DNA of 64,000 nt from Parvularculaceae bacterium (GTDB taxonomy: Bacteria; Pseudomonadota; Alphaproteobacteria; Caulobacterales; Parvularculaceae), in contig JAJFFW010000041.1 in assembly GCA_021776435.1 (NCBI GenBank), positions 6,351-70,350 on the forward strand. Reading direction: 5' to 3'. Numbering within the stretch: the first letter of the stretch is position 1; each line of letters starts with the position of its first letter. Below the pieces are notes generated by a model. The model ran no database searches. It saw only the letters and a program-made list of their open reading frames with translations, and was not told the DNA's origin. The position numbers and the translations under genes were made by a program. Positions 27,770 to 42,033 of this stretch are shown here, piece by piece.

Positions 27770-27831
27770 TGAGCACTCCAATTTCCGTTTTCCGTACACG
27801 CTGGTCAGAGCGCGTTCCGATCCCCCGCAGC

Positions 27832-30612
27832 TTATTTATCAGCTTCGGCCGTTCGCGACAAACCGTCCTCAGAGAAACCGAGCTTTCGCCGCAACATATC
27901 CCGATCCTCAAGGGTAAGCTCTCCATCTGGTATGATCCTGCGGATATTTTCCGTCAACGGCGCTTCGATTGTGGCCGGATCAACGGACTGGTCATATATT
28001 CTCCTCGCATCTGAAGCATTGGAGATTAATGTTCCGCCTGCTTTTGCGTTCTCGCGCGATAGATAGAACCACACATCGCGCGGCAACGAGCCGGGAATGA
28101 CCTCGCCATTCTCTGCCCGTTGATGATTTTGTCGGAAACCATCACTCTGGACATAGTCAACAATTTTGTCGATTTCGTCGCGAGTCAACGGGCCGCCAAA
28201 GCCATCGCCATTGCCAACACCCCAGGGCGGCATAAATTTGTCGAAGCGACCGGTATTGACGATTTTGAACATCGCCTGATGGGTCCGGTCAATATCCGCT
28301 TCAAGCGACAATCCGTCGATGCCCTCGCCGAACTGACCATGACAGCCGGCGCAATTGGCTTCAAACATCTGCTGGCCACTCAGACCGAGAACCGTGCCAT
28401 AGCCAACTTTGATTGGTTTGGAAGGTTGTAACGGGATGATGGTGCCGTCTTCGCGTTCCATCGGCTCGCGTTCGACGAGGCCCGCTTCATCAAAAATGAG
28501 AGGTGTCAGGATTGCAGCCTGCTCTTCTGTTGACTTCTGACGATATTTCATCCGCACCGTTCCATACCGGTTCGCGTCGTAGTGTTCGCCTTTCATCTTG
28601 GCGAACTCACGATTGTCTGCGCCGCCGACATTGATGACAACTTTTCCAGCGAGTAGGGGGGCGATCCCGTTAGAACCGTCGCCTTTGCTCGTATAAGCGA
28701 TGCCGTCGCCGTCATCATCCTCGCGAATGAATCCGGTATAGATTTCACCGGTTCGCTCGGATTCCGACTGCATGGAGCCACTCTGATCGACAGTCTGCAC
28801 CCACCAGCGCGAGAAGCGTTCAATCTGCGCATCGGTTCGGTGCGCCGGCGTCGCAAAGATCATCTCTCGCATAGCTGCGAGAGCGATGCCGACCCCGTAG
28901 GGTTCAACCACAACAGTGTCGTCGCCGAGCTGAGTGCGATAGACGCCGAATTCTTCAACCCAGTATTCGCTGTTGAGGAGGTTGAAGGTCTTGCGCGCCG
29001 CTGCCAGAAAGTCTTCGTCCTCGGTTAGATAATAGGCCGCCAAAAGCGCTCTAATGCCAGCCCAGTTGGGCGCGCTCAGATTGTTATCGCCAATCGATTG
29101 TCCGTCAACTGTATAAGACTCATTGAAAGATCCATCGGTATTTTGCACTTCGAGAAGGAAGCGGCCATTGCGCTCAACAATTTTCTGCGCGCGCCGGCTC
29201 GTCTTGGAATATTTCTCGAGAAGCTCCCAAGTTTGCGCCATATCTTGCAAGGCGACGATTGCCATCGTCATGTCGCGCATCGTTATTTGCGCGCCAGTTC
29301 CATTTTTAGGCGTCCATTCGGATACCAGAATGCCGTCCTTCAGGTGCATAGCCTCGATATTCTTGAAAACAGCGTTGGTTAGCGATTCCGCGACCAGCCC
29401 CATCTCTTTTTCGATGAACCCCCCGTCAACCGGCGGATTGTCTGTAAACACCATCGGGCGGCGCATTGCGGTCATGGCATAGGTGCTAGATCCCCAAATC
29501 CAGGACGCCTGGTCCCAGAGCTGGCTTGACTTGTCCTTGAGGCTCATCGACCAGAGGCGTTCCGGGATGTCGCCGACCCATAAAATGTTGGGTTCGATCT
29601 CATGGGGAATATAGCGCAGCCCTTGAGCCGGATCGTATTCGGCCGGATTGATGCCCATCAGCTTTTTGCCATCGGTGAACATCGACGATTTGACTTCGAG
29701 GATGGTGTTGGTCGCCGCCATCGTCAGACCCCAGCCGCGCATCCCTTCTTCGGCGTCATTACCCAGCATCGACACTTCAGTGCCGAGCGATACCGGCGAT
29801 ACCTCGTTATGCTCTGAGTGGAAAAAATAGTCCGACCACTGCATGCGCCGCTTCACAAATTGACCGATCGCGCCGAGATCGAAGGTCGTATTCATTTTGT
29901 CGGGATCGAAGCGTTGGGTGTAATCGTTCATATAAACGTTTGGTTGTCCCCAGCCACCCTTCTTATCGCTCATGGGGTCTTCGAAGCTGTCGGTATTGTC
30001 GAGCTTGCCTGTGAAATGAGGGTCAACCGACTTGTACTGGACGTAACTGACCTGAATGTCGTCAAAAACTCGCGGGAAGCCGGTCCGTTGATAAACCATC
30101 GGCAAGTACAGGCCGAGCATGATGTCTTTGTTGGAGAAGGTGCGCTCGCCGCGGTCGCGCTGGATCTTGTTATAGGACGAGTGACGCAGGGCCTGCATCG
30201 TCCAGTAAGGCGCATGCACCATATGGACGCCGGCGTGTCCGCGACCGCCGGTGTAATCGAGCAGATAGCGCGCGTAGAAATATATCTCCTTGGAAGTGAT
30301 CCATTGGAAGCCACGGCGATAGGCGACCGGCACACCGGCTTTGGCGAAGTCGTTGTAGCCCTCCATGCCAATCTTGAAGCCCTCATTGGCCATGAAGGTT
30401 GCGTCGTTCGTATAGAATCGCCGGTCCACAACTTTGCTGTCGAGAGGTGATCGATACATGCTGAGGTCGGGCTGTAGCGCGCCGCCCTTGATGTGAACGA
30501 TCCGGCCGTCCGGCGTGTAGAGTAGATTTTTGGCGATCACGATCGGTGTGATAAATAGACAGCCGCCGAGGATCAGTGCGATCACGCGTTTACGTGTTTT
30601 GGTACCTGTCAT
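27832..30612 (-). CDS. membrane-anchored 926-aa periplasmic protein of unknown family with C-terminal monoheme cytochrome c domain
   Basis: N-terminal anchor 'VIALILGGCLFITPIVIA'. About 700 aa that I cannot assign; the segment '...NGRFLLEVQNTDGSFNES...NWAGIRALLAAYYLTEDEDFLAAARKTFNLL' is reminiscent of alpha/alpha-toroid repeats. Then 'CAGCHG...FMPPWG'. Confidence 0.75.
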   Translation of the reverse strand: MTGTKTRKRVIALILGGCLFITPIVIAKNLLYTPDGRIVHIKGGALQPDLSMYRSPLDSKVVDRRFYTNDATFMANEGFKIGMEGYNDFAKAGVPVAYRRGFQWITSKEIYFYARYLLDYTGGRGHAGVHMVHAPYWTMQALRHSSYNKIQRDRGERTFSNKDIMLGLYLPMVYQRTGFPRVFDDIQVSYVQYKSVDPHFTGKLDNTDSFEDPMSDKKGGWGQPNVYMNDYTQRFDPDKMNTTFDLGAIGQFVKRRMQWSDYFFHSEHNEVSPVSLGTEVSMLGNDAEEGMRGWGLTMAATNTILEVKSSMFTDGKKLMGINPAEYDPAQGLRYIPHEIEPNILWVGDIPERLWSMSLKDKSSQLWDQASWIWGSSTYAMTAMRRPMVFTDNPPVDGGFIEKEMGLVAESLTNAVFKNIEAMHLKDGILVSEWTPKNGTGAQITMRDMTMAIVALQDMAQTWELLEKYSKTSRRAQKIVERNGRFLLEVQNTDGSFNESYTVDGQSIGDNNLSAPNWAGIRALLAAYYLTEDEDFLAAARKTFNLLNSEYWVEEFGVYRTQLGDDTVVVEPYGVGIALAAMREMIFATPAHRTDAQIERFSRWWVQTVDQSGSMQSESERTGEIYTGFIREDDDGDGIAYTSKGDGSNGIAPLLAGKVVINVGGADNREFAKMKGEHYDANRYGTVRMKYRQKSTEEQAAILTPLIFDEAGLVEREPMEREDGTIIPLQPSKPIKVGYGTVLGLSGQQMFEANCAGCHGQFGEGIDGLSLEADIDRTHQAMFKIVNTGRFDKFMPPWGVGNGDGFGGPLTRDEIDKIVDYVQSDGFRQNHQRAENGEVIPGSLPRDVWFYLSRENAKAGGTLISNASDARRIYDQSVDPATIEAPLTENIRRIIPDGELTLEDRDMLRRKLGFSEDGLSRTAEADK

Positions 30613-30678
30613 TGCTCCATGCCTCCGATGCGCGCGCGACCGTCGTACTCATTGATGCGGCCGCTAAAATAAACGTCT

Positions 30679-32193
30679 TTAAAAAATCACTTCCAGATTG
30701 GCCCGCAACACGAATGGCGGTGCTGGACCGAGGTCGGGCTCGATAACCCGAATGAGGCCGGACACGGTCATGCGAATTTGCGGATCCGGGCTGAAGATCA
30801 ATGAGGGGGCGACCATGCCGGTGAAGCCCCCCGAAAAGGAGGGTCTGTCGACGACGTCGAACACAAAAGCCTCGTCTCCGATCATCCCGCAGCCGCCGAC
30901 GGCGCCGGCGACGTCGACCGCGTCGCAGACGTGGATTTCCGGTTCCGGAATCTTGCCGGCATAGGAATCGTTTTGCTTATCGAACCCGACAAAGGTCAGA
31001 TCCATGGCCACAAAATCTTTGTAGATCGGCTTGACGAAGGATGCGAAATACGTGGTCGTGTCACCAAAATCGATACCGTCTTCTTCCTGTACGAATTTAT
31101 GGATCACGCCGATATGCCCGGCGCTGCGGCCCAGGAAGCTGTTGGGAGCGAACTGTCGAGTGAGGAATCCGCCGGTCAGGAAGCTAAAGTCGCCGGTGCC
31201 CGGCTGCAGGGTTGAAGGCAGGCGTCCATCGGCTGAGAAGCGACCAAAAATGCCGTCATTGAATGGAAAATCACCAATGAAGGCGTTGTCGAAATTCGCG
31301 CCGCCCGGAGCGAATGACAACGGCCCGGCAGACGGCGCGCCGAAAGCCCCGCCGTCGCCCATGGCCGGTCCATCACATAGCGCTCGATTGCCGAGATTGA
31401 AATTGTGAAAGAAGCATCTGGGATCGCCCCACACGCCCATATCCACATTCGCCTTCATGACCGCATCGAAACCCTGCGCCGCGATCGTGTTCGGAGGTTG
31501 CGGCCGTTTCGTCGTGACCCGTCCGTTCGAGCCAAAGGTCTCGTCATTGGCGCCGGTCGGAAAGAAGACGGCGCCGACAACGGCGAGGCCGAACGGATGA
31601 TTGCCCTGATCCCACACTTTTTTCTTGAGGAACACGCCGACGTCGCCGATCTCCTGCGTGCTGCCTGCGTTCTCTATGCTAATGAATTGTTGACCATTGG
31701 GATGAATGAAACCGTCAACGCTTGAACTCAGATAAGGCACGTTAACGCGGAGCGTGAAACCGTGAAGATACTTTCTGTTCAGGTCGAAACCATAGAGAAA
31801 ATCAAAATCGGTCAGATTGCGCTCGACTGTGGAATCTCCGAAGACGGCGAGGTTGGGAGATCCATTGCGAAAGAAGTCGTCGCCCTCGATACGCGTGTAA
31901 CGGTGGGTTAGTCCGACCGACACGGCGCCGGGGGGGAGAACGAAGGCATGCTGCGTAAAGGCAGGGCGCAAAAGCGGCGGAATAAAGGTCAGGATTTGCG
32001 TCTTGATCTGATTGCGCTCGAAGGCTTTTTGCTCTTCGCCTCCCAGCACGCCTTGCTCCGTACCCAATTCTAAATAGCGATCCGCTGCTGTGGGTTTATC
32101 TTTGTCCACATCTTCTTGAGCTTGGGCGCCGCCGCCCGCTGCAATCGAAAGAAGAAAAGCAAGACTTGCTCCGCTCCGGAGGAAATATTTCAT
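30679..32193 (-). CDS. outer-membrane beta-barrel protein (MetA-pathway/FapF-type transporter family-like)
   Basis: Signal peptide '...LLSIAAGGGAQAQ'. 'AVVGAVFFPTGAND' motif, alternating beta-strand pattern, C-terminal 'LEVIF'. No CXXCH. Confidence 0.7.
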   Translation of the reverse strand: MKYFLRSGASLAFLLSIAAGGGAQAQEDVDKDKPTAADRYLELGTEQGVLGGEEQKAFERNQIKTQILTFIPPLLRPAFTQHAFVLPPGAVSVGLTHRYTRIEGDDFFRNGSPNLAVFGDSTVERNLTDFDFLYGFDLNRKYLHGFTLRVNVPYLSSSVDGFIHPNGQQFISIENAGSTQEIGDVGVFLKKKVWDQGNHPFGLAVVGAVFFPTGANDETFGSNGRVTTKRPQPPNTIAAQGFDAVMKANVDMGVWGDPRCFFHNFNLGNRALCDGPAMGDGGAFGAPSAGPLSFAPGGANFDNAFIGDFPFNDGIFGRFSADGRLPSTLQPGTGDFSFLTGGFLTRQFAPNSFLGRSAGHIGVIHKFVQEEDGIDFGDTTTYFASFVKPIYKDFVAMDLTFVGFDKQNDSYAGKIPEPEIHVCDAVDVAGAVGGCGMIGDEAFVFDVVDRPSFSGGFTGMVAPSLIFSPDPQIRMTVSGLIRVIEPDLGPAPPFVLRANLEVIF

Positions 32194-32244: not shown

Positions 32245-32259
32245 GCAACTGGCGTGCCA
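32245..32259 (-). promoter_or_regulatory. sigma54 (-24/-12) promoter
   Basis: The minus strand reads cTGGCACGCCAGTTGCg, an exact TGGCAC-N5-TTGC, 52 nt upstream of the ATG at 32193. Confidence 0.7.
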
Positions 32260-32425: not shown

Positions 32426-34795
32426 TCACTTTCGGCGACGAGCCCGACGAATGACAACCAAACCTGTTCCAAACACTAGGAATGCAATGAATAACGGCAG
32501 ACCACGAGTTTTCATTGGGTCTTCCGGAGCGGGCAAGACCAACCAGTACCAGGGCGTCAGGGTGTGTTTGGAGGCGATTTCCCCATTGCTGCCATTCCAG
32601 TTGGCGAACGAAATCGGAATGAATTCACCTTCATTAAAGGAAACATCGCGCGGATCTTCAGCCTGACGGCTGCGCGACATCATGACGCGCCAGCGGCCAT
32701 ACTGCCATTCTCCACTTGCGGTTACGGATTGATCATCGCTGCGCGGATGAAGCCTTTGATCGTCGCCGACACCATCTAAAATCGTGATCTTCGGCTCGAT
32801 AACAGGATCTGCGCTACCGGCGTTCCAGTACCAGATGGCAGTTGGATGCGACTTATCACCATGTCGGAAGAATGGCTTTTCGACCGTTGGTCCAGTCTGG
32901 AATGAACCCGCCGTGGGAAGCTGGATGGCCAGAGCATCGGAGAAGAGTTGCAAAGTACGGTCTTGCGTCGCCAGCGCATCCGCGTCGCCCGGCCGACTGA
33001 GCGTGCGGTCGTCTAACTCCAGCAGGATAGCGATGTCATCATCATTGTAGAGCAATCGCACTGTCAGAGCGTCGGAGAGCGGCTTGAAAAGCCTTTCCCC
33101 TTTCATGATGTTGGCGAGAAGCATCAGCGTTGTCGGTTTTGCGGAGGCCCAGACCTCGTCATTGACGTTATCGGGGAGGGGGCCATCGATTCTGACACCC
33201 TGAATCGTTCGTTCACGGCTAACTGGAGTTGTGTAGTTTCGTAGCGTGTAGACATAGTTGGCGATATGCCAACGGTCCTCTTCGTCGATCTTATCCTCAT
33301 GAGCTGGCATTGGCGTGCCTGGAATGCCGACCGATAGCCGTGTGAAAATATTGCGGATTGTCCCTTCGGTATCTTCGGCAATTTCCGTGACACGCCAGGT
33401 CCATGGTTTGGTGAGGTCGCGCGGCCAGATGCGGTTTCCCCATTCGTCTTTGAGTCGCTTATCGACGGATGGGTTGCCTCGACCATCCGTTCCGTGACAG
33501 ATCGAACAAGTTTTTTCAAATAGATTTTTCCCCAATGCAACAGAGTCTTCCGTAAACGGAACGGGATTTTCGGCCGTACTCCGTTCGATAACGCTAAGGG
33601 GTTTGTTCTTGTAGCGTCCTTCGTCGTCGAAATCGGCATCAGGCGCGTCCGCAGGCGCCCATGTCCCGACGAGGTCAAACCCCTTGACGACCTTGATTAG
33701 TTCCCGGATTTGAGCGTCGCTTAGAACGCTTTCCCATGCCGGCATCGCGGTTCCTGGCAGACCCGTTTTGATGGTGTGAAAGAGATCCTCGTCAGAAGGG
33801 GGATTCGTTTTGAACGGGGACGTTTTATATTTGAACATCCCGATTGTGAAATCACGAGGCGCCGGATACACAAATTCGGCGGCGGGTCCGTCACCCGCCC
33901 CATCTTCACCGTGGCATACGGCGCAATGCAGTTCGTAAAGATCGCGACCGTGCAGGTTTTGGCGTTCATTCTCGATCGTGTCTTTCATTGACGTCACCGC
34001 TTTGGAGACGTCTTGATTCCACATTCTCGGCACTTGCCCCACATGGTCGTAAAGGAAGGTGATGACGCTCCAAACTTCTTCCTCGCTCAACACGTCTTTC
34101 CAAACGGGCATTGCTGAGTTCCATGGAGCGCCTTCTTTTGGCAACCCAGGACCGCCGGTGGTGATGCGCCAGAACAAATAGGCTTCTTGCAACTGCGCGA
34201 TCGTTCCGACATCACGGAAATTAGCGGGTGGCGGATTCAGCCCTGGCGCAAATATACCGTGCCCATCGAGAAGGTCGCCATGGCAGAAAAAACAATTTGT
34301 ATAATAGATATCAGATCCCTTCTCCACGGTCCGTTGATAATTTGTGGCGGCGGCGTCTGGGTCCGTTTTGAATGTTTCGAGGATTTCGTTGCGGAGGGGG
34401 TTTTCCAACGAAGTGAGATCGAAGGTCTTGTCATAGGCCTGCAATTGGCGTGGAGGGGCCGGGTGGACCTGTCGCAATTCGACCGGCGCAATGAGGGATT
34501 GTTTGACAACAGAGAATGCAATCAACCCCGCTAGACCCGTCGCTAATCCAAGGAACGCCCACCGAATTGGCCATTTTCCCTTGTCCTCGAGTGTGGATTT
34601 GATCGGCGCTTTGAACTCAGCCCACCTGCTGTCGTCGAATGAATAAAAGAGCAACACACCCACTGCGATGATGATCATATACTGGGCGAGTACGGATTTT
34701 GGCATGACTGGAGGAAAGGCATTGTCGAGAATAAGATAAGCAACGACAAGAACGAGTACGGCCTGCAGTAGGGCGGGTATTTTGAATCTCTTCAT
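32426..34795 (-). CDS. membrane-bound triheme cytochrome c fused to a DOMON/EB_dh-like haem-binding domain
   Basis: 789 aa. N-terminal TM helices. Three CXXCH sites (CFFCH, CAVCH, CSICH). The C-terminal about 220 aa ('DALAIQLP...FRHGD...AIWYWNAG...GRWRVMMSRSR...ISFANWNGSNGEIASKHTLTPWYWL') follow the pattern of the ethylbenzene-dehydrogenase/NarI-type-II gamma-subunit domain. C-terminal TM 'LPLFIAFLVFGTGLVVI'. Confidence 0.8.
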   Translation of the reverse strand: MKRFKIPALLQAVLVLVVAYLILDNAFPPVMPKSVLAQYMIIIAVGVLLFYSFDDSRWAEFKAPIKSTLEDKGKWPIRWAFLGLATGLAGLIAFSVVKQSLIAPVELRQVHPAPPRQLQAYDKTFDLTSLENPLRNEILETFKTDPDAAATNYQRTVEKGSDIYYTNCFFCHGDLLDGHGIFAPGLNPPPANFRDVGTIAQLQEAYLFWRITTGGPGLPKEGAPWNSAMPVWKDVLSEEEVWSVITFLYDHVGQVPRMWNQDVSKAVTSMKDTIENERQNLHGRDLYELHCAVCHGEDGAGDGPAAEFVYPAPRDFTIGMFKYKTSPFKTNPPSDEDLFHTIKTGLPGTAMPAWESVLSDAQIRELIKVVKGFDLVGTWAPADAPDADFDDEGRYKNKPLSVIERSTAENPVPFTEDSVALGKNLFEKTCSICHGTDGRGNPSVDKRLKDEWGNRIWPRDLTKPWTWRVTEIAEDTEGTIRNIFTRLSVGIPGTPMPAHEDKIDEEDRWHIANYVYTLRNYTTPVSRERTIQGVRIDGPLPDNVNDEVWASAKPTTLMLLANIMKGERLFKPLSDALTVRLLYNDDDIAILLELDDRTLSRPGDADALATQDRTLQLFSDALAIQLPTAGSFQTGPTVEKPFFRHGDKSHPTAIWYWNAGSADPVIEPKITILDGVGDDQRLHPRSDDQSVTASGEWQYGRWRVMMSRSRQAEDPRDVSFNEGEFIPISFANWNGSNGEIASKHTLTPWYWLVLPAPEDPMKTRGLPLFIAFLVFGTGLVVIRRARRRK

Positions 34796-34802
34796 GGCGC
34801 CT

Positions 34803-35630
34803 TCAACCGTTCTGGCTTTCGAGAAATTTCACGATGGCCTCGAGTTCTTTGATCGTCAGTTCATCTACGAAGTAATCGGGCATCATCGGCTCGTAACCAT
34901 CGGCAATCACCGACATCGGATCGATGATGCTCTGGCGGATCTGTTCAGTGGTCAGGCGCGCCCCCACAGTTCTAAGATCGGGACCGATATCCACCTCGCT
35001 GTCGAGAATGCTGTGGCAGGCTGTGCAACCGTAATTCATCAAAAGGTCTGCGGCGGTCGCCGTCTCGCCAGAAACCGCAGGCTCAGCGGCGGAATCATTT
35101 GCAGGTTCCGGCGCCGGTTCGAGCCGGGCGGTCGGCAGAGCGACTGTCACATCGTGCCCGTCCTTGGATTCAAGAAACGCAATGATTGCGTCCATTTCCA
35201 TCTGAGATAGCTGAATCGGCGCTTGGTTGACCGGTGGCATGGGCGATATCTGGTCATCGGTGCCTTTCTTGCCAAAGCCCGGCACGACATAGGCGCTTGG
35301 TTCCGTCATCGATTCCCGAATATAGCTGGCAGCATCGACCGCATCTCCTTCATAGCCCTCAGCGGAGATCCGCGATGCAGAGGTGTCGACGACGTTTAAG
35401 GCCAGGAGGTCAGGCGCCCGCCCCATATTGTTGTGACATAACGCGCAAGTCCCTTTTCCTGTGAAAAGCTTTTCTCCCAATCGGGTGAAATCCGCCATCG
35501 TCAGTGAGCTGACGTCGATTGTTGTTTCCTCCGGCGGCTCGCCCTGCACTTGCGGCAAAAGGTTAGCGACCCCGGTGAAGACCAGAGTGAGGAGAAGGCT
35601 GAACCCCGCGACTTTTCCCAACACCCGCAT
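34803..35630 (-). CDS. diheme c-type cytochrome
   Basis: 275 aa. N-terminal anchor or signal. CALCH and CTACH. Start overlaps the upstream stop (TGATG). Confidence 0.85.
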   Translation of the reverse strand: MRVLGKVAGFSLLLTLVFTGVANLLPQVQGEPPEETTIDVSSLTMADFTRLGEKLFTGKGTCALCHNNMGRAPDLLALNVVDTSASRISAEGYEGDAVDAASYIRESMTEPSAYVVPGFGKKGTDDQISPMPPVNQAPIQLSQMEMDAIIAFLESKDGHDVTVALPTARLEPAPEPANDSAAEPAVSGETATAADLLMNYGCTACHSILDSEVDIGPDLRTVGARLTTEQIRQSIIDPMSVIADGYEPMMPDYFVDELTIKELEAIVKFLESQNG

Positions 35631-37486
35631 CAGCTTTGCTCAACATATGGTTTGCGTGTCTCGCCGAGCGACGCAAGCCAGAAAATGAATAGCACCATGA
35701 GTAAGAATAGCACTGTCACGATTGTCATCATGTTGCCCGCATAACCGATCGTCGGAATAAAATTATCAGGTGAGGCGTCCTTAAGAACACCATAAACGTG
35801 CCAGTGTCCGCGGACAGATGACCGGACATACCCCATCAACGCCATCAACCAGGTGAATGCTACCGGCAAAGCAAACAATGCGTATTGCGAGCGTTCGCTA
35901 ACTTGCCCCCAACGTGAGGGTAAAATCTTTGCGTTCCGATACATGAAAGAGTCGAGGATGACGCCGCTGATGATGACGAACAGTGTCGAGACCACCTGGA
36001 TCACGCTCGCTCCCACTTTGTAAACCGTGTTGGTGAAGTAGCCGTAATAAACGCCAGCGAAAATAACGTTGATAATCGCCACCAGATAGATCGCTGTCAT
36101 CAAGGCGTTGCCTGATTTTTCCCACGACACCGTCGCCACCTTGTCTGACCGCCTATAGAGCTGAAAAGAGAGGAAGGTGCAGATGAGCATCAAGTTCACG
36201 GCGATGTTCTTGGCGGGCATGATGCCTAGCGGTCCGAGAATATGATGGTGGCTGCCGCCGAGTGTGGCGATTTCGTCGGAAGACAAAATGAGCGTGTGCG
36301 GAGTGACCCAGACCAGAAAGCCCAGAACCAACACTCCCGCGATGTATTTGATAATCCAGTCGTATCGCTTCGAACCTTCCGAGCGCGACATGCCCGACCA
36401 CAGATAATAATTGGCGGCCAGCAAAATTGTACCGATCAAAACCGCCTGAACGATGAATAGCCAGGCGAGAATTCCGCCCATCGCGGTGATCCCCATCTGC
36501 TGTGAATACGCGTAAATTTCGGCCATCAACCAATACCCAGCGAAGGGCAGAGGCAGGAGCGCCAGAACAGCAATGAAATTGGCTGTGTAGCCCATCCAGT
36601 CGTAATGGGCTTTGTCCGCCTTCGTCGTTGAACTTAAAAATTTAAAAGCCGCATAAGCGCCCACCATTGCCCCGCCGAAGGCGATGTTGGCGATGAACCG
36701 ATGCAAATTGAGCGGGTTCCACAAGGGGCCCCTCATGATTTCCCAGATTCCGCCGGTCACGACACCAGCCTCGGTGACGCCGCTCGGCGCCATGGTGAAG
36801 GTGGCCCAGGAATTGGCGATGAAAAGCAAGCTCGTCCCAACGGCGTTGAGCAGTAGACCGAGCGTTAAATGGAGCCATTTGCCGTTGCCTGAGCTGAGGC
36901 GGCGCCAACTGTAGTAATAGATGTAAAGTAGCGTGCTCTCGGCAAAGAAAAGACCTGCATAGACTAACACCTGCGATCCAAAAACGCGCATTAAGAAGGC
37001 CATGAATCCGGGATAGAGAAGGAAGAGAACAAAAGACAGCGTGCCGCCTAAAAGCGCCGTTATGGAATAGGCGGTCAGGCTGATCTTCATGAACTCGTGC
37101 GCCATGTCGTCATATCGTCGATCGTGAGTGGTTTGCCCGATCCATTCGATGACGACGACAAAGAGTGGTACAGCGAGAACAAAGGCTGCGAAGAACAGAT
37201 GCAGTTGCGCCACCACCCATACGACCGATCGACTACTAACACCAATGTTCGGATAATCTCTCGGGCCAAGCTTCGGGGCGCCGACACTTTCCTCTGTCAC
37301 CGGAGGTGAGGTCAGATCTTGATCTGTGATGCCGGACGAGATCAACGTATCACTCGCCTGAGCCTCGACAGACCCCGCAGCCACTGCGGCTAGCAGAAAA
37401 ATTGCAAGCACAGCCCAAAACCGAAGACCGGGACGTGTCAAGCCTGTGCGCCACGTTGGCATTAATTTCTCCTTGAACATCATCAT
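35630..37486 (-). CDS. cytochrome bd-like oxidase subunit I (CydA) homolog, extended, without Q-loop
   Basis: Many TM helices (I estimate about 14). CydA-like motifs 'VAQLHLFFAAF' (His19-type), 'FFAESTLLYIYYYSW' (Glu99/Glu107 region), 'IANSWATFTMAPSG' (compare 'ANGWMQNP'), 'NPLNLHRFIANIAFGG'. Only a short loop where CydA has the Q-loop. No cydB nearby. First ATG at 37486; the ORF track begins at a TTG at 37489. Confidence 0.75.
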   Translation of the reverse strand: MMMFKEKLMPTWRTGLTRPGLRFWAVLAIFLLAAVAAGSVEAQASDTLISSGITDQDLTSPPVTEESVGAPKLGPRDYPNIGVSSRSVVWVVAQLHLFFAAFVLAVPLFVVVIEWIGQTTHDRRYDDMAHEFMKISLTAYSITALLGGTLSFVLFLLYPGFMAFLMRVFGSQVLVYAGLFFAESTLLYIYYYSWRRLSSGNGKWLHLTLGLLLNAVGTSLLFIANSWATFTMAPSGVTEAGVVTGGIWEIMRGPLWNPLNLHRFIANIAFGGAMVGAYAAFKFLSSTTKADKAHYDWMGYTANFIAVLALLPLPFAGYWLMAEIYAYSQQMGITAMGGILAWLFIVQAVLIGTILLAANYYLWSGMSRSEGSKRYDWIIKYIAGVLVLGFLVWVTPHTLILSSDEIATLGGSHHHILGPLGIMPAKNIAVNLMLICTFLSFQLYRRSDKVATVSWEKSGNALMTAIYLVAIINVIFAGVYYGYFTNTVYKVGASVIQVVSTLFVIISGVILDSFMYRNAKILPSRWGQVSERSQYALFALPVAFTWLMALMGYVRSSVRGHWHVYGVLKDASPDNFIPTIGYAGNMMTIVTVLFLLMVLFIFWLASLGETRKPYVEQS

Positions 37487-37617
37487 CAAGCTGGTTGTAA
37501 GATCCAGTTGAGTGGCAATCCCTGGCCTGCCATTATCGCTTGATCAATCGCGTAGAAAACTGCGGCGGTGGCCGTCAAGACAACGATCCAGATTATCAGT
37601 GAGCGACGCTCCTTCAT
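37486..37617 (-). CDS. 43-aa single-TM micro-protein, translationally coupled to the bd-like gene
   Basis: My own translation: MKERRSLIIWIVVLTATAAVFYAIDQAIMAGQGLPLNWILQPA. AAGGGA SD upstream. Its TGA stop overlaps the bd-like ATG (TGATG). Below the ORF-track size cut-off. Confidence 0.5.
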   Translation of the reverse strand: MKERRSLIIWIVVLTATAAVFYAIDQAIMAGQGLPLNWILQPA

Positions 37618-37640: not shown

Positions 37641-37814
37641 TTACGTTACGTGCGGAGCCACGCCGTGCGGGAAGATTGTCAGCCACCAGAAGAAGGCCAT
37701 AACTGCTATCAGCGCGCCGCCGAACAGCCATGGACCGGTGCGGTCTCCCTTAACATTTGGCTCATCCGCTCGATCTTCCGACCCATGCGATGATCTTTCC
37801 ATTTCCGGCGGCAT
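37641..37814 (-). CDS. 57-aa single-TM micro-protein, first gene of the minus-strand operon
   Basis: My own translation: MPPEMERSSHGSEDRADEPNVKGDRTGPWLFGGALIAVMAFFWWLTIFPHGVAPHVT. Lies 23 nt upstream of the next ORF. Confidence 0.45.
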   Translation of the reverse strand: MPPEMERSSHGSEDRADEPNVKGDRTGPWLFGGALIAVMAFFWWLTIFPHGVAPHVT

Positions 37815-37984: not shown

Positions 37985-37999
37985 GCAACTTCCAGGCCA
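37985..37999 (-). promoter_or_regulatory. candidate sigma54 promoter (minus strand)
   Basis: The minus strand reads cTGGCCTGGAAGTTGCt. GG and GC have the correct 12-nt register. About 170 nt upstream of the ATG at 37814. Confidence 0.5.
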
Positions 38000-38205: not shown

Positions 38206-38220
38206 TGGCACGATTACTGC
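38206..38220 (+). promoter_or_regulatory. candidate sigma54 promoter (plus strand)
   Basis: tTGGCACGATTACTGCt. TGGCAC is exact and the -12 element is CTGC. Confidence 0.55.
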
Positions 38221-38545: not shown

Positions 38546-40738
38546 ATGGCTCAACCTTTAGAGAACGAAGCAAGTGCCCTTGGAAAAGATGAGAAGGGCG
38601 GAAAACTCGACCTTCCCTCATATGCTTCGGTCTTGGTCGCCGTCGATGCTTCTGACCACGCCAATCGAGCGACCGTAGAGGCGGCGGCGATTGCCAAGGC
38701 ATTTGACGCTCGCATGACGGCGACTCACGTCTATGCAGCGAAACTTCATGATCTGCGGTTTCGGCAGATGGAGGGTGGGCTTCCCGAACAGTTCCGCGAG
38801 GAGAGCGAATTGGAGCGTCAACGGGATGTCCATGACGATCTTATCACCCGCGGACTCTCGATCATCACGGACTCTTATCTCGATCACGCCGCGCGTGTCT
38901 GTGAGCAAACCGGGGTCAACTTTGAGCGTCGGTCACTCGAAGGCAAGAATTATCGAGCTTTGGTCGCAGAGACGAACTCAGGTGATTATGATCTTTTAAT
39001 CATCGGCTCTTTAGGGTTGGGTGCGGTGCCTGGAAATACACTGGGGTCAGTCTGCGATCGAGTGGCGCGCCGAACTAATATCGACACACTGGTGATCAAA
39101 GATACGATCCGTCCGCTCGCCGATGGACCGATCGTTGTCGCCATTGACGGATCGTCTCGTGCTTATGGCGGTCTCATGACAGCGCTTGCTCTGGCTGAAT
39201 GCTGGCGTGTTCCAGTCGAGGTGATTGCCGCCTTCGATCCCTATTATCATTATGTCGCCTTCAACCGTATCGCCGGCGTGTTGTCCGAAGAAGCGGGCAA
39301 GGTGTTTCGCTTTGAAGAGCAAGAACAGCTGCACGAGGAGATCATCGATTCCGGTCTCGCCAAAATCTATCAGGGCCATCTGAGCGTCGCCCGCCAGATT
39401 GCCGACGAGTATGACGTCCAATTGAAGACGACGCTTCTCGATGGCAAACCGCATGCCGCCATCGAAAAATATCTCACTAGGGCGAAACCTTCCCTCCTCG
39501 TGGTCGGTAAGGTGGGCATCCATGCTGATCCCGATCTCGACATCGGCGGTACGACAGAAAATTTGTTGCGCAATGCCGCCTGCTCGATTCTGCTCAGTCA
39601 ACGCGAACATAAGCCCCGCATCGACCTGATCGCGGCCGAAACCATTTCCTGGACCAAAGAGGCCGAACAAAGAATGGAAGCCGTGCCTTCTTTCGTTTCT
39701 TCGATGGCGAGAATGGCGATCTTGCGCTACGCGCAGGATAAAGGGCACACCGTGATCACCGAGCGGATCGTTGAGGAAGCCACCGCCAAGTTGATGCCGC
39801 ACCGCGCCGAAGAGACCATGCGCCAGATCGTCGAAGCCCACGATGATGGCAAACTTGATTCACTAAATCCCGAGATCGAGACGCCAGGCTGGTCGGATGA
39901 AGCGATTGGGCTCTTATCGGAAATCGAGAGCTCTTCGACACGGGACAATGTCGCCAAGCGAGCTGAGAAGAAGGCGCGCCAGCAAGGTCAGCCCATTGTC
40001 CTCGTGGCGCATGTTATGGACTTTCTAGAATCCTCTTATGTTGAAGTGGCGCCGTTGCATTGGACGGCTCCGGCGCTCGCACGCCTCATGAAAGTCCCCG
40101 CTGGTATAATGCGCGACGGCGTGAAGGCGCGGGTTGAGGACTATGCGCGGCGCGAAGACCTGCACGAGATTACTCTCCACATCACCGAAATCGGATTGAC
40201 CGAAGCGCGCAGTGAGATGGAAACGATGGCGGCGGGCAGCGCTTCGCAGTCAGCGACTGGAAGTTTTCCACAGAAAGCAAGTAAATGTCCGTTTGCGGAT
40301 AGTGTGCAAAATGACGAATTATCTGTGCCGCCCCCTGACGCTAATTTCGGCTCTGAATGGACCCCAGAAGCTAAAGCCCGCCTCAACGCCGTGCCGGTCG
40401 GATTCTGTAGAGACATGGTGGTGAAGGCGGCGGAAACCATAGGCGGCGTCAACGGCCTTTCGGAAATCGATTCCGAGTTTGTTAAGCAATTGCTTCGCAC
40501 ATTCCGAACTGGGGCGGAGGGCGTAAGCGAGGCTCTGCCTTGGGATGCAGATGCGAGGATTCGAGTCTCCCGAGCCCCGAAGATGGTCCGCGGTATGTTG
40601 ATTCGTGAGATCGAAAATTGGACCCGGCGTCACGGGCGCGACAGCGTCGATGAAGCGGCGGTGGACTCAGTCAAGGATCAATGGATGAAGCGCGGATTTT
40701 TTCATCTCGACCCCAGCGATCCGAGGAGCGGGCTCTAA
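38546..40738 (+). CDS. tandem universal-stress-protein (USP) domains fused to five PCP_red-like modules
   Basis: 730 aa. Two USP folds ('VLVAVDASDHANRA...LLIIGSLGLGAVPGNTLGSVCDRVARR', 'IVVAIDGSSRAY...LLVVGKVGIH...GGTTENLLRNAACSILL'). Then five modules of about 45 aa beginning 'W[TSD]xxA...(V/A)P' (for example 'WTKEAEQRMEAVPSFVSSMARMAILRYA'). Confidence 0.75.
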   Translation: MAQPLENEASALGKDEKGGKLDLPSYASVLVAVDASDHANRATVEAAAIAKAFDARMTATHVYAAKLHDLRFRQMEGGLPEQFREESELERQRDVHDDLITRGLSIITDSYLDHAARVCEQTGVNFERRSLEGKNYRALVAETNSGDYDLLIIGSLGLGAVPGNTLGSVCDRVARRTNIDTLVIKDTIRPLADGPIVVAIDGSSRAYGGLMTALALAECWRVPVEVIAAFDPYYHYVAFNRIAGVLSEEAGKVFRFEEQEQLHEEIIDSGLAKIYQGHLSVARQIADEYDVQLKTTLLDGKPHAAIEKYLTRAKPSLLVVGKVGIHADPDLDIGGTTENLLRNAACSILLSQREHKPRIDLIAAETISWTKEAEQRMEAVPSFVSSMARMAILRYAQDKGHTVITERIVEEATAKLMPHRAEETMRQIVEAHDDGKLDSLNPEIETPGWSDEAIGLLSEIESSSTRDNVAKRAEKKARQQGQPIVLVAHVMDFLESSYVEVAPLHWTAPALARLMKVPAGIMRDGVKARVEDYARREDLHEITLHITEIGLTEARSEMETMAAGSASQSATGSFPQKASKCPFADSVQNDELSVPPPDANFGSEWTPEAKARLNAVPVGFCRDMVVKAAETIGGVNGLSEIDSEFVKQLLRTFRTGAEGVSEALPWDADARIRVSRAPKMVRGMLIREIENWTRRHGRDSVDEAAVDSVKDQWMKRGFFHLDPSDPRSGL

Positions 40739-40773
40739 CCGACTTGACGCAACGAATGAAAGGCGGCCGGTCG

Positions 40774-42033
40774 ATGAACACATTGCTGTTACTGGCGATC
40801 AACCTGACACGACGTTGCAATCTGGCGTGTACGCACTGTTATCTGGATGCGGAGACGCTGAGCCGCGCTGCTCCAGACGAGTTGACGACGCAAGAAGTTT
40901 GCGACTTACTCGATGCGATCGCAAAGCGTGGTGATGAGACCATGGTCGTGCTGACCGGTGGCGAACCCCTCGTGCGCGCCGATCTGGAAACCCTAATTGG
41001 TCACGGCGCCAGACGCGGACTTGCCGTCGTCGTAGGAACCAACGGAACCCTCTTGACCGAGCGGCGTGTCTTGTCACTGAAGAAGGCTGGCGCGCTCGGC
41101 GTTGGCATCAGCCTCGACTCGCTCGACGCAGAAATTCACGACGACTTCAGGGGTAAGCCAGGGGCTTGGGAGAGAACCATGAGCGGGATCGAGGCCTGTC
41201 GTCGCCATGATCTGTCGTTTCAGATCCACTTCACGGTTACAGAGCGCACGGTCGGCGAGATTGATGCTATAATTGAATTCTCCAGGGGCGTCGGCGCCCG
41301 CGTGCTCAATGTCTTCTTCCTAATTTGTACCGGGCGCGCTGAGTCGATTTCCGACCTTGCACCGAAGCGCTACGAGGAAGTGCTCAGGCAGCTGATCGAG
41401 GCTCAAGAACACAACCCCGACCTCATCATTCGGCCGCGATGTGCGCCGCATTCAAAGCGCATCGCCCATCAAAGAGACCCAGACAGCCAGGTCAATCAAA
41501 TTAGCGGCAGGGACGGTGATGGTTGTATCGCTGCAACGCATTACTGCCGCATTACAGCAACGGGGGGTGTGACCGCATGTCCTTATATCGCCGAAGAGGC
41601 CGGTAATATTCGCACACGGCCATTCCTTGAAATCTGGGAACAGGCGCCGGAATTCGGTGCATTGCGCCAGCCGACATTGGAGGGCGCCTGCGGGGTTTGT
41701 GAATATAAGTTGTTGTGCGGTGGATGCCGGGCGCGGCCACAGGCAGCGGGTGAGGGTCTGATGGGCGCTGATAATCTGTGCACCTATTCGCCTCGCGGTG
41801 CAGCGGTAATCGAACCCTTGGCTGATCAAGTTCTGGCCAAAATCACCTGGAGCACGGACGCCGCCGGGCGGTTGTCGAATGTGCCGTCATTCTTGCGCGG
41901 CCTTGTTCGCCGGCGGGCCGAGGCTTATGTCGCGGGTCGTGGAGAATCGCAGGTGACGATCGAACATTTGTCGGAATTGACCGCTCGGCGCTTTGGCGCC
42001 GGCGGCCCGCGCAATCCGGGAGCCCGGATATGA
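40774..42033 (+). CDS. radical SAM/SPASM enzyme, AhbD/NirJ-like (tetrapyrrole-modifying family), with C-terminal PCP_red-like module
   Basis: 'LTRRCNLACTHCY' (CX3CX2C), 'VLTGGEPL', SPASM Cys cluster 'CPYI...ACGVCEYKLLCGGCRARP'. C-terminal 'WSTDAAGRLSNVPSFLRGLVRRRAEAYV'. Alternative ATG at 40756; the ORF-track start at 40681 overlaps the upstream gene. Confidence 0.75.
   Translation: MNTLLLLAINLTRRCNLACTHCYLDAETLSRAAPDELTTQEVCDLLDAIAKRGDETMVVLTGGEPLVRADLETLIGHGARRGLAVVVGTNGTLLTERRVLSLKKAGALGVGISLDSLDAEIHDDFRGKPGAWERTMSGIEACRRHDLSFQIHFTVTERTVGEIDAIIEFSRGVGARVLNVFFLICTGRAESISDLAPKRYEEVLRQLIEAQEHNPDLIIRPRCAPHSKRIAHQRDPDSQVNQISGRDGDGCIAATHYCRITATGGVTACPYIAEEAGNIRTRPFLEIWEQAPEFGALRQPTLEGACGVCEYKLLCGGCRARPQAAGEGLMGADNLCTYSPRGAAVIEPLADQVLAKITWSTDAAGRLSNVPSFLRGLVRRRAEAYVAGRGESQVTIEHLSELTARRFGAGGPRNPGARI

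What the first reader, a model, noticed from the sequence alone, without database searches (positions are those of the whole stretch)
35630..37486. CydA homolog retains the haem-ligand helices but lacks the Q-loop and the CydB partner
Motifs match E. coli CydA as I recall it. 'AQLHLFF' aligns with the His19 helix. 'FFAESTLLYIYYYSW' aligns with 'FFLESTFVGLFFFGW' (Glu99/Glu107). 'ANSWATFTMAPSG' aligns with 'ANGWMQNPVG'. 'NPLNLHRFIANIAFGG' aligns with 'NPVAQVKFVHTVASG', but the His is displaced by about 3 residues. The segment after this helix ('KFLSSTTKADKAHYDWMGY') is only about 20 residues where CydA has the long quinol-binding Q-loop. The protein continues for about 300 further residues of TM helices, which could replace CydB. 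An N-terminal cleavable-looking signal and a ~60-residue periplasmic extension precede the first conserved helix.
Basis: partly seen in the sequence, partly recalled or inferred. Interest (0 to 1): 0.6.

Follow-up and report, generated by a model that had tools for sequence, protein, structure and literature searches.

The report
Known cytochrome bd-like OR-N2 subunit
This gene encodes a member of an already catalogued but never purified family of cytochrome-bd-like membrane haem proteins that lack the quinol loop and the CydB partner and are wired to c-type cytochromes; it is a well-preserved example in an unusual host, not a new kind of enzyme.

Summary
ORF 35630-37462(-), 610 aa from the likely ATG, is a CydA homologue (Pfam PF01654, 72.7 bits, N-terminal 60% of the profile only). 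The predicted fold's best matches are solved CydA chains. The His19, Glu107 and His186 equivalents are kept. Glu99 is a conserved Tyr. The quinol residues Lys252 and Glu257 are invariant Gly. The 98.6%-complete genome has no CydB.

It is not new. The residue signature, about 14 TM helices and an operon with c-cytochromes plus an EbdC/NxrC-like haem-b protein match the OR-N2 subfamily of Murali, Gennis and Hemp (2021). This is the "cytochrome bd-like oxidase" of Nitrospira, Nitrospina and Kuenenia (Lücker 2010, 2013).

- Glu99 is not retained.
- The Q-loop belongs after TM6, not TM5.
- His186 is not displaced.

The C-terminal half shows no likeness to CydB.

Two upstream micro-proteins (57 and 43 aa) are conserved in 77-78 of 80 related loci and recur in Nitrospira. 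This genome has neither NXR nor the iodate-reductase-type genes that flank the module in many Gammaproteobacteria.

The function remains unproven. A cytochrome-c-fed terminal reductase is the leading guess.

The parts
35630..37462 (-). bd-like CydA homologue (OR-N2 type), 610 aa from the ATG at 37462. The alternative TTG at 37489 gives 619 aa.
   Evidence: ORF. RBS AAGGAG 7 nt before the ATG. 610-aa public calls are 100% identical. PF01654 at 72.7 bits. AF2 model with pLDDT 71.7 and pTM 0.71: N-terminal helix plus 13 TM helices. Foldseek top ten are all CydA chains.
37355..37462 (-). N-terminal signal or anchor, residues 1-36: basic n-region, hydrophobic core 15-32, AQA|S at 34-37.
   Evidence: Hydropathy peak. 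Helix 11-33 in the model, followed by a segment with pLDDT below 50. Cleavage was not tested.
36332..37237 (-). Region demonstrably homologous to CydA TM1-TM6 (residues 76-377 against E. coli CydA 7-294).
   Evidence: hhalign at 96.3% probability, E=1.6e-9, against a 31-sequence canonical CydA profile. HMMER hits to PDB CydA chains.
37199..37201 (-). His88 codon, equivalent to E. coli His19 (axial ligand of the active-site haem).
   Evidence: Aligned by HMMER and hhalign. His in 37 of 40 aligned family members.
36959..36961 (-). Tyr168 codon at the position of E. coli Glu99. The glutamate is lost.
   Evidence: Alignments. Tyr in 37 of 40. The OR-N2 reference has Y183 at this column.
36938..36940 (-). 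Glu175 codon, equivalent to E. coli Glu107 (proton-channel glutamate).
   Evidence: FFAES aligns with FFLES. Glu in 21 of 40, including all proteobacterial members.
36869..36871 (-). His198 codon, invariant. Equivalent to E. coli His126 by HMMER and by Murali's table.
   Evidence: His in 40 of 40. HMMER aligns it with His126, hhalign does not. The OR-N2 reference has H213.
36701..36703 (-). His254 codon, equivalent to E. coli His186 (haem b558 ligand). It is followed by invariant Arg255.
   Evidence: Aligned with the His186 equivalents of M. smegmatis bd-II and E. coli. His in 40 of 40.
36473..36502 (-). QQMGITAMGG (residues 321-330): the short periplasmic TM6-TM7 link that stands where the Q-loop starts. 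Lys252 is replaced by Gly324 and Glu257 by Gly329.
   Evidence: hhalign pairs it with E. coli QKTKLAAIEA. G324, I325, G329 and G330 are invariant and M323 is present in 39 of 40.
35633..36331 (-). C-terminal residues 378-610 (the end of TM8 and TM9-TM13), with invariant periplasmic His389 (39/40), Glu397, His406 and His555, Ser548 at the Glu445 column, and Met415 at the Met393 column.
   Evidence: Model helices. Conservation. Column equivalences come from Murali Table S6 at a constant -15 offset. No significant profile similarity to CydA or CydB.
37486..37617 (-). 43-aa single-TM micro-protein with the motif FYxxDxxIMxxQGLPLN. Likely a small subunit.
   Evidence: Found just upstream of the bd-like gene in 78 of 80 related loci. 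The motif recurs in the 70-aa peptide of the Nitrospira locus L122. No Pfam or NCBIfam family.
37641..37814 (-). 57-aa single-TM micro-protein with the motif WGPxLF...FFWWLxIxxHGV. Likely a small subunit.
   Evidence: Conserved in 77 of 80 loci, same order and strand. A similar 40-aa peptide is present in Nitrospira L122.
34803..35630 (-). Membrane-anchored dihaem cytochrome c (275 aa, CxxCH at 62 and 202). Its ATG overlaps the bd-like stop codon (TGATG).
   Evidence: Pfam Cytochrom_C. Haem motifs, TM segment and overlap. Present in 78 of 80 loci.
32426..34795 (-). 789-aa trihaem cytochrome c fused to an EB_dh (EbdC/NxrC-like haem b) domain, with three N-terminal TM segments and one C-terminal.
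   Evidence: Pfam Cytochrome_CBB3 x3 plus EB_dh at 67.7 bits. CxxCH at 168, 291 and 430 and four TM peaks. Full-length match in 66 of 80 loci; most of the others show a partial match on short contigs. It is the only EB_dh domain in the genome.
37985..37999 (-). TGGCCTGGAAGTTGC, a -24/-12-like (sigma-54 type) site 171 nt upstream of the 57-aa gene.
   Evidence: Pattern match. The pattern as a whole is not clearly above chance in the window (19 found against 10.8 expected). A NtrC-type activator gene lies at 45674-47059.

Best explanation
The gene encodes the polytopic haem-b subunit of an OR-N2-type "cytochrome bd-like" complex.

Shown here. The first six helices are homologous to CydA TM1-TM6. 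They keep the active-site His (His88 for His19), one proton-channel Glu (Glu175 for Glu107), His198 and the b558-type His (His254 for His186). The Q-loop is reduced to a 10-residue stub whose quinol residues are glycines. The genome has no CydB. The gene is translationally coupled to a membrane-anchored dihaem cytochrome c. That gene is followed 7 nt later by a trihaem-c/EbdC-like haem-b protein. Two conserved single-TM micro-proteins are encoded just upstream.

Inferred. These five products form one membrane complex of about 20 TM helices, similar in size to CydABX. Five periplasmic c-haems and one periplasmic b-haem would pass electrons to the His254 haem, and on to a high-spin haem on His88 inside the four-helix bundle. 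There a small oxidant, most likely O2, would be reduced with protons taken from the cytoplasm through the Glu175 path, which would contribute to the proton-motive force. Cytochrome c, not quinol, would be the donor.

My odds: about 0.95 that it is an OR-N2 member, about 0.8 for the wiring to c-cytochromes, and about 0.4 for O2 reduction as the catalysed reaction.
For: Family identity:
- The Pfam, PDB-sequence and hhalign hits cover only the N-terminal half of CydA.
- The AF2 fold's top ten Foldseek matches are all CydA chains.
- The residue signature H88/Y168/E175/H198/H254/M415-N419/S548/W554/Y182/Y184 equals the published OR-N2 row H99/Y183/E190/H213/H269/M430-N434/S563/W569/Y197/Y199. The offset is a constant -15, except -11 for the first residue.
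- The protein is 31-46% identical over its full length to Nitrospira bd-like proteins. Nitrospira locus L122 has the same gene order, including both micro-peptides.

Strong constraint: the bd-like protein is 67-86% identical across Alpha-, Gamma- and Zetaproteobacteria, while its operon neighbours are 45-65% identical in all but the closest Parvularculaceae locus.

Synteny: the dihaem cytochrome c is present in 78 of 80 loci, the EB_dh fusion in 66 of 80 and the micro-peptides in 77-78 of 80.

No CydB and no second CydA in the genome.

Function, from the literature only. Murali et al. treat OR-N as oxygen reductases with alternative donors. CydAA' shows that neither CydB nor haem d is needed for O2 reduction. 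The cluster is among the 40 most transcribed genes in N. moscoviensis. It is called TO_1 in Manganitrophaceae.
Against: - No member of the family has been purified or assayed, so O2 reduction is conjecture.
- The strict anaerobe Kuenenia carries the same cluster.
- Glu99 and Glu445, both close to the active-site haems in E. coli and Geobacillus, are Tyr and Ser here. Three-haem chemistry of the canonical kind is therefore not guaranteed.
- The Met393 equivalent is Met only in part of the family (21 of 40).
- This genome already has two aa3-type oxidases.
- The conserved periplasmic loops are modelled with pLDDT below 50, so no geometry could be checked.
Confidence: 0.6

Rival explanations
1. 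The complex is a quinone-coupled electron-transfer module, functionally like an alternative complex III. It would move electrons between the quinone pool and periplasmic c-cytochromes in either direction. A new quinone site would lie in the four extra helices, and the complex would reduce no terminal oxidant itself.
For: - Proposed in the literature for the NXR-linked cluster (Lücker 2013; Mundinger 2019).
- Fits the presence of the cluster in strictly anaerobic Kuenenia.
- Fits the gammaproteobacterial context, where the module is followed in 33 of 46 loci by Idr/Aio-type Mo enzyme genes and two dihaem peroxidases. All of these need electrons from cytochrome c.
- This genome already has aa3 oxidases for O2.
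Against: - Every residue known to bind quinol in CydA is gone (Lys252 and Glu257 are Gly).
- No NrfD/ActC-type or cytochrome-b-type quinone subunit is in the operon.
- The His19-type open-coordination haem site, which has no obvious role in simple electron transfer, is retained in 37 of 40 members.
- The Foldseek match to ActC is weak (6btm_C, E=0.048, TM-score 0.18-0.23).
Confidence: 0.22
2. It is a terminal reductase or detoxifying enzyme for an oxidant other than O2, such as H2O2, NO or a reactive halogen species like HIO. The reaction would take place at the His88 haem, fed by c-cytochromes.
For: - The active-site surroundings differ from O2-reducing bd oxidases (Glu99 is Tyr, Glu445 is Ser).
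- In many Gammaproteobacteria the module is linked to iodate-reductase-type genes and peroxidases, whose chemistry yields HIO and H2O2 (PMC8692401).
- In nitrite oxidisers and anammox bacteria it is linked to N-oxide chemistry.
Against: - This 98.6%-complete genome has neither Idr/Aio nor NXR nor CCP/MauG homologues, yet it keeps the module intact and highly conserved. A partner-specific by-product is therefore an unlikely substrate.
- There is no direct evidence for any substrate.
Confidence: 0.12
3. It is a decaying remnant of cydA left after loss of cydB, with no function of its own.
For: Only the N-terminal 60% of the CydA profile matches. The genome has no CydB. Related orders carry canonical CydA.
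Against: - The frame is intact at 610 aa, with a strong RBS and translational coupling to the next gene.
- More than 5,900 homologues of 584-650 aa were found, and 412 species-level genome matches.
- Identity is 67-86% across proteobacterial classes, and 55 columns are invariant out to Nitrospira.
Confidence: 0.01

Closest known systems
OR-N2 subfamily of the cytochrome bd superfamily (Murali, Gennis and Hemp 2021). This is the "cytochrome bd-like oxidase" of Nitrospira, Nitrospina and Kuenenia (Lücker 2010, 2013) and TO_1 of Ca. Manganitrophus.
   Same: About 14 TM helices. No Q-loop or quinol residues. No CydB. The same signature residues (H19, Y for E99, E107, H126, H186, S for E445, W). 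An operon with several c-cytochromes and an EbdC/NxrC-like haem-b protein. Two upstream micro-peptides also occur in a Nitrospira locus.
   Different: The host is an alphaproteobacterium with no NXR. The cytochrome c and EbdC-like parts are fused into one 789-aa protein with three haem c sites. Identity to the Nitrospira proteins is only 31-46%. The downstream partners here are an outer-membrane barrel-like protein and a 926-aa cytochrome c fusion, not NXR or Idr-type genes.
Canonical cytochrome bd quinol oxidase CydABX (qOR1 to qOR3; E. coli 6rko/6rx4, G. thermodenitrificans 5doq, M. smegmatis 9r2g)
   Same: Homologous TM1-TM6 with the His19, Glu107, His126 and His186 equivalents. The overall fold is CydA-like. 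The N-terminus is outside and the C-terminus inside.
   Different: No CydB. No Q-loop (Lys252 and Glu257 are Gly). Glu99 is Tyr and Glu445 is Ser. There are about four extra TM helices and an N-terminal signal or anchor. The likely donor is cytochrome c rather than quinol.
CydAA' (qOR4a/qOR4b) of Caldivirga maquilingensis
   Same: A bd-superfamily enzyme that works without CydB and without haem d. This shows that neither is required for O2 reduction (abstract).
   Different: CydAA' keeps the quinol site in one paralogue and pairs two CydA-like subunits. This genome has only one CydA-family gene.
OR-C family (CydA with a C-terminal haem c domain)
   Same: No quinol site, and cytochrome c is the presumed donor.
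   Different: In OR-C the haem c motifs sit in CydA itself, which has 8 TM helices and keeps Glu99. Here CydA has no CxxCH and the c-haems are on separate subunits.
cbb3-type cytochrome c oxidase (CcoNOP). Works alike only; not related.
   Same: Membrane-anchored mono- and dihaem c subunits feed a polytopic catalytic subunit. The Pfam and NCBIfam hits of the neighbouring cytochromes are to CcoP- and FixO-type domains.
   Different: The catalytic subunit has a different fold (haem-copper superfamily). No relationship is claimed.

Membership tests
OR-N2 (cytochrome bd-like oxidase) | N-terminal four-helix haem bundle homologous to CydA, with the His19 ligand kept | tested here: met
   PF01654 at 72.7 bits. 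hhalign at 96.3%. His88 aligns with His19 and is His in 37 of 40 members.
OR-N2 (cytochrome bd-like oxidase) | Quinol-binding site and Q-loop missing | tested here: met
   The TM6-TM7 link is about 10-25 residues. Lys252 is Gly324 and Glu257 is Gly329, both invariant.
OR-N2 (cytochrome bd-like oxidase) | About 14 predicted TM helices | tested here: met
   The AF2 model has an N-terminal helix 11-33 plus 13 membrane-length helices. The hydropathy peaks agree.
OR-N2 (cytochrome bd-like oxidase) | Signature columns of Murali Table S6: Tyr at E99, Glu at E107, His at H126, His at H186, Ser/Ala at E445, Trp, and Tyr/Tyr at F114/F116 | tested here: met
   Y168, E175, H198, H254, S548, W554, Y182 and Y184 lie at a constant -15 offset from reference TKS59798.1. 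The N-terminal columns were checked by my own alignments. The C-terminal ones rest on spacing and a weak R..W motif match.
OR-N2 (cytochrome bd-like oxidase) | Operon with several c-type cytochromes and an EbdC (EB_dh) homologue | tested here: met
   A dihaem cytochrome c and a trihaem-c + EB_dh fusion lie directly downstream, overlapping by 1 nt and 7 nt apart. The arrangement is conserved in 66-78 of 80 loci.
OR-N2 (cytochrome bd-like oxidase) | Phylogenetic placement within the OR-N2 clade, using the authors' HMMs or tree | not testable with these tools
   The authors' HMMs and reference sequences are not on hand. Indirect support: full-length 31-46% identity to Nitrospira bd-like proteins and the same gene order in Nitrospira locus L122.
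OR-N2 (cytochrome bd-like oxidase) | Oxygen reductase activity (implied by the family name) | not testable with these tools
   No member has been purified. The papers read here call the function enigmatic or undetermined.
Canonical cytochrome bd quinol oxidase (CydAB, qOR) | CydB partner subunit | tested here: not met
   The best PF02322 match in the 98.6%-complete genome scores 19.8 bits against a 35.6 cut-off, on another contig.
Canonical cytochrome bd quinol oxidase (CydAB, qOR) | Q-loop with Lys252 and Glu257 | tested here: not met
   Both positions are invariant Gly, and the loop is a 10-residue stub.
Canonical cytochrome bd quinol oxidase (CydAB, qOR) | Full ligand set: His19, His186 + Met393, Glu445, and Glu99 | tested here: not met
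   His19 and His186 are kept. Glu99 is Tyr168 and Glu445 is Ser548 (40 of 40). The Met393 column is Met415 in only 21 of 40 members.
Alternative complex III | NrfD-type quinol-binding membrane subunits (ActC/ActF) and an ActB Fe-S subunit | tested here: not met
   No such Pfam or NCBIfam families were found in the module. Foldseek to 6btm_C gives only E=0.048 and TM-score 0.18-0.23.

The most novel reading that the evidence does not exclude
OR-N2 is a partner-independent "socket": a cytochrome-c-fed terminal reductase that different lineages plug into different periplasmic or outer-membrane redox enzymes. The partner would be NXR in nitrite oxidisers and Idr/Aio-type Mo enzymes in marine Gammaproteobacteria. 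In this alphaproteobacterium, which has neither, the partner would be the downstream outer-membrane barrel-like protein, the 926-aa cytochrome c fusion and the dihaem cytochrome c (27047-32193). Together they would form an envelope-spanning conduit that delivers electrons from an outside or periplasmic donor to the bd-like haem site. The invariant periplasmic His389/His406/His555/Glu397 cluster might hold a metal or dock the cytochromes.
Probability: 0.15. Interest if true: 0.7.

Novelty: new member of a known kind. Interest (0 to 1): 0.3.

Why it matters
[quoted passage not shown] They are the presumed terminal oxidases of globally important nitrite oxidisers, yet none has been purified.

This copy adds little on its own, because it comes from a draft genome of 142 contigs. 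It does add one useful constraint. The five-gene core is kept intact and under strong constraint in a genome that has neither NXR nor an iodate/arsenite-type partner, and that already owns two aa3 oxidases. Whatever the complex does is therefore not tied to nitrite or iodate chemistry.

The near-universal pair of micro-proteins, conserved out to Nitrospira, should be included in any expression or structural work on the family.

Tried and rejected
1. I tested whether the C-terminal half resembles CydB, the C-terminal half of CydA, or the protein's own N-terminal half (internal duplication). hhalign probabilities were all below 6%. A first N-versus-C comparison gave 99.6% only because my two fragments overlapped, and I discarded it.

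2. My first canonical CydA profile held only two sequences, because I read one record of a multi-record file. I redid it with 31 sequences.

3. NCBIfam has no model for the bd-like protein or for either micro-protein. Pfam has none for the micro-proteins.

4. Residue-level geometry, such as which Met or His faces His254, could not be examined.

6. The ISME J version of Murali et al. and the PNAS 2010 Nitrospira paper are not held. I used the bioRxiv version and its supplements instead.

7. I considered an NXR-anchor role in this genome and rejected it. The only type II DMSO-reductase-family enzyme is a cytoplasmic NarG (TIGR01580, 2201 bits). The only EB_dh domain is the one in this operon.

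8. I considered an Idr partner here and rejected it. The genome has no Rieske_3 domain and no AioA- or CCP-like tblastn hits.


Full report
**What is there.** On the minus strand, 35630..37489 is an open frame of 619 codons from a TTG. An ATG at 37462 is preceded by AAGGAG at 7 nt. Public gene calls identical to the window's protein are 610 aa long (P0001 and P0002). I therefore number the protein from that ATG.

Pfam's Cyt_bd_oxida_I model matches at E=2.9e-20 (72.7 bits, cut-off 26.2). Only profile positions 2-251 of 418 are covered. NCBIfam has no model for it.

Against PDB sequences the single protein finds M. smegmatis bd-II CydA (9r2g_A, 2e-10) and Geobacillus CydA (5doq_A, 4.7e-9). A 15-member family profile also finds both E. 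coli enzymes. hhalign of a 40-sequence family alignment against a 31-sequence canonical CydA profile gives 96.3% probability for residues 76-377 against E. coli 7-294, which is TM1 to just past TM6.

An AlphaFold2 model (pLDDT 71.7, pTM 0.71) has an N-terminal helix and 13 membrane-length helices. Its ten best Foldseek matches in the PDB are all CydA chains (E from 2e-7 to 9e-5, probability 1.00, TM-score 0.42-0.56 normalised by target). CydB chains, which share the fold, come next.

**Residue by residue.** These equivalences come from HMMER and hhalign:
- His88 aligns with His19.
- Glu106 aligns with Glu37.
- Glu175, in FFAES, aligns with Glu107.
- His254 aligns with His186.

The histidines align, both with E. 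coli and with the AHMW motif of the M. smegmatis enzyme.

Three corrections are needed.
1. The FFAES/FFLES motif holds only Glu107. Glu99 lies upstream, and its column is Tyr168 here, Tyr in 37 of 40 family members.
2. The Q-loop of CydA lies between TM6 and TM7, as the Murali supplement also states. The Q-loop is nevertheless missing. TM6 is joined to TM7 by the conserved stub QQMGITAMGG, which hhalign pairs with E. coli QKTKLAAIEA. The quinol residues Lys252 and Glu257 fall on invariant Gly324 and Gly329.
3. The C-terminal half is not detectably similar to CydB, to CydA's C-terminal half, or to the protein's own N-terminal half (below 6% probability). CydA itself has four helices after TM5, so the surplus is about four helices rather than a CydB-sized domain.

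A weak but consistent motif match pairs GYVRSSVRGHWHV with AEYGRQPWAI. Together with the published table, it places Ser548 at the Glu445 column and Trp554 at the conserved Trp.

**No CydB.** The genome is 2.96 Mb in 142 contigs and 98.6% complete. It has exactly one PF01654 match, which is this gene. It has no PF02322 match above the cut-off (19.8 against 35.6 bits).

**It is a known family.** Lücker et al. 2013 describe the "conspicuous cytochrome bd-like oxidase" of Nitrospina, Nitrospira and Kuenenia in terms almost identical to the finding. It has 14 TM helices. The N-terminal part aligns with CydA and the haem b ligands are conserved. The Q-loop is replaced and all quinol-binding residues are lacking. 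It sits in a conserved cluster with an alternative NxrC and mono- and dihaem cytochromes c.

Murali, Gennis and Hemp 2021 formalised this as the OR-N family. Their Table S6 row for OR-N2 reads H269, M430/N434, S563, H99, Y183, E190, H213, W569, Y197, Y199. Residues H254, M415/N419, S548, Y168, E175, H198, W554, Y182 and Y184 of the window's protein lie at a constant offset of -15. H88 lies at -11.

[quoted passage not shown] That is the context here:
- The bd-like stop codon overlaps the ATG of a membrane-anchored dihaem cytochrome c (TGATG).
- Seven nucleotides after that gene starts a 789-aa protein with three CxxCH sites, an EB_dh domain and four TM segments.

The family is also listed for Proteobacteria. 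Later papers still call the function undetermined.

**Relatives.**
- More than 5,900 proteins match at E<=1e-5. The best 120 are 71-100% identical and 584-650 aa long.
- 412 species-representative genomes encode a relative.
- At 50% clustering, 1,133 representatives match.
- Named carriers are mostly sulfur-oxidising Gammaproteobacteria: Parabeggiatoa, Thiomargarita, Sedimenticola, Thiodiazotropha, Thiolapillus and Sulfuricaulis. Zetaproteobacteria also appear.
- The nearest relatives are Parvularculaceae and Sphingomonadales MAGs.
- In a tree, the window plus these two form a supported clade (SH-aLRT 98). It is nested in a tight proteobacterial clade dominated by Gammaproteobacteria.
- In an even sample of 121 Pseudomonadota genomes, 55 have canonical CydA. 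Eight, including the window's own genome, have the truncated-match bd-like type, and no other genome of the same class does. Lateral acquisition is the simplest reading.
- A distant representative (34% identical, full length) pulls out the Nitrospira proteins. Some Nitrospira members are 45-46% identical to the window's protein.

**Conserved neighbourhood.** Across 80 related loci the following are found:
- the dihaem cytochrome c follows the bd-like gene in 78;
- the trihaem-c/EB_dh protein is present at full length in 66, and most of the others show a partial match on short contigs;
- two small ORFs upstream, 57 aa (37641-37814) and 43 aa (37486-37617), each with one TM segment, are present in the same order in 77 and 78 of the 80.

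The micro-protein motifs are WGPxLF...FFWWLxIxxHGV and FYxxDxxIMxxQGLPLN. Neither has a Pfam or NCBIfam family. In Nitrospira sp. Kam-Ns4a the orthologous cluster reads [40 aa][70 aa], bd-like, 439 aa, cytochrome c, and cytochrome c x2 + EB_dh. The 70-aa peptide carries DHYLMDMQGL and the 40-aa peptide carries LWFFYWF. They are therefore very probably small subunits, playing the role that CydX, CydS or CydH play in bd oxidases.

Counting TM segments gives 13-14, 1, 1, 1 and 4. The putative complex is thus about as large in the membrane as CydABX. This is inference.

**What the module is not tied to.**
- This genome has a cytoplasmic NarG (TIGR01580, 2201 bits), NuoG, a formate dehydrogenase and one unclassified Mo enzyme. 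It has no periplasmic NXR-type enzyme.
- The only EB_dh domain in the genome is the one in this operon.
- In 33 of 46 related loci with enough downstream sequence, the module is followed by two dihaem CCP/MauG-like genes, a Rieske gene and an AioA-like Mo subunit. By the synteny criterion of Reyes-Umana et al. this is the iodate reductase gene set.
- The window's genome has none of these. Downstream here lie a barrel-like 504-aa protein, a 926-aa protein ending in a cytochrome c domain, and a dihaem cytochrome c. These are shared with the closest Parvularculaceae locus (L003) and, for the first two, the Sphingomonadales locus (L005).
- Two aa3-type oxidases are present elsewhere in the genome.

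**How it most likely works.**

Shown: the protein has a CydA-type haem bundle with His19- and His186-type ligands. It has no canonical quinol site. It is translationally coupled to periplasmic c-haem carriers and an EbdC-like haem b protein. The catalytic-looking subunit is far better conserved than its partners, at 67-86% identity. The partners are 45-65% identical in all but the closest locus.

Inferred: electrons would enter through the periplasmic haems and reach the His254 haem. Its sixth ligand may be Met415 or the nearly invariant Met323. They would then reduce a small oxidant at the His88 haem, with protons supplied through Glu175.

O2 is the leading candidate, by analogy with the superfamily and with CydAA', which needs neither CydB nor haem d. 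The replacement of Glu99 and Glu445, the presence of the cluster in Kuenenia, and the absence of any assay keep my odds for that step near 0.4. The main rival is a quinone-coupled, ACIII-like role. A further rival is a reductase for another oxidant.

The invariant periplasmic His389, Glu397, His406 and His555 lie in loops that the model cannot place (pLDDT below 50). They are unexplained. They could be cofactor or docking sites.

**Verdict.** The class is already described, so this is a new member of a known kind in an unusual host and context. Interest is modest.

Noticed in passing
window 37486-37617 and 37641-37814 (-); L122 7496-7618 and 7703-7915: Two single-TM micro-proteins (43 and 57 aa) precede the bd-like gene in 77-78 of 80 related loci. 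Recognisable counterparts occur in a Nitrospira locus (motifs MQGL and FFWW/FFYW). They have no Pfam or NCBIfam family and are not mentioned in the OR-N descriptions I read.
   Followed up: yes
L011 15716-21571, and 32 other gamma- or zetaproteobacterial loci among L006-L082: In 33 of 46 loci with at least 2.5 kb of downstream sequence, the bd-like module is followed on the same strand by four genes. These are two dihaem CCP/MauG-like genes, a Rieske gene (arsenite_ox_S at 113.8 bits) and an AioA-like Mo subunit (arsenite_ox_L at 405 bits). This is the idrP1-P2-B-A iodate-reductase gene set by synteny. It is absent from the window's genome.
   Followed up: partly
window 38546-43484 (+); L122 825-1286: A divergent gene set accompanies the module in 48, 44 and 35 of 80 loci. 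It comprises a Usp + PCP_red repeat protein, a radical SAM/SPASM + PCP_red protein and a HemY/amine-oxidase-like flavoprotein. In Nitrospira a PCP_red protein sits two genes upstream of the second bd-like paralogue. Another finding of this scan covers this set.
   Followed up: partly
window 27832-32193 (-); genome contig C60 21058-24216: The barrel-like 504-aa protein and the 926-aa protein downstream of the module have a paralogous adjacent pair on contig C60 (36% and 34% identity). The C60 copy aligns only to residues 5-665, so it lacks the C-terminal cytochrome c domain.
   Followed up: no
window 32245-32259 (-), 37985-37999 (-), 38206-38220 (+); 43827-47059 (+): GG-N10-GC (sigma-54-like) sites lie in all three intergenic gaps of the module. 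A PAS histidine kinase and a NtrC-type sigma-54 activator are encoded nearby. The loose pattern itself is only marginally above chance in the window (19 found against 10.8 expected).
   Followed up: partly
genome-wide (G000) and the 121-genome phylum sample: The genome lacks canonical cydAB although sampled genomes of the same order have it. The bd-like type occurs in 8 of the 121 sampled Pseudomonadota genomes (the window's own included), and in no other genome of the same class. The tree nests the alphaproteobacterial copies among Gammaproteobacteria, which suggests lateral acquisition.
   Followed up: partly
genome contig C19 10797-12239 (+): A 481-aa divergent COX1-superfamily protein (PF00115, 43.9 bits) has no NCBIfam match at E<=1e-10. 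It is a third, unclassified haem-copper-oxidase-like gene beside two aa3-type CtaD genes.
   Followed up: no
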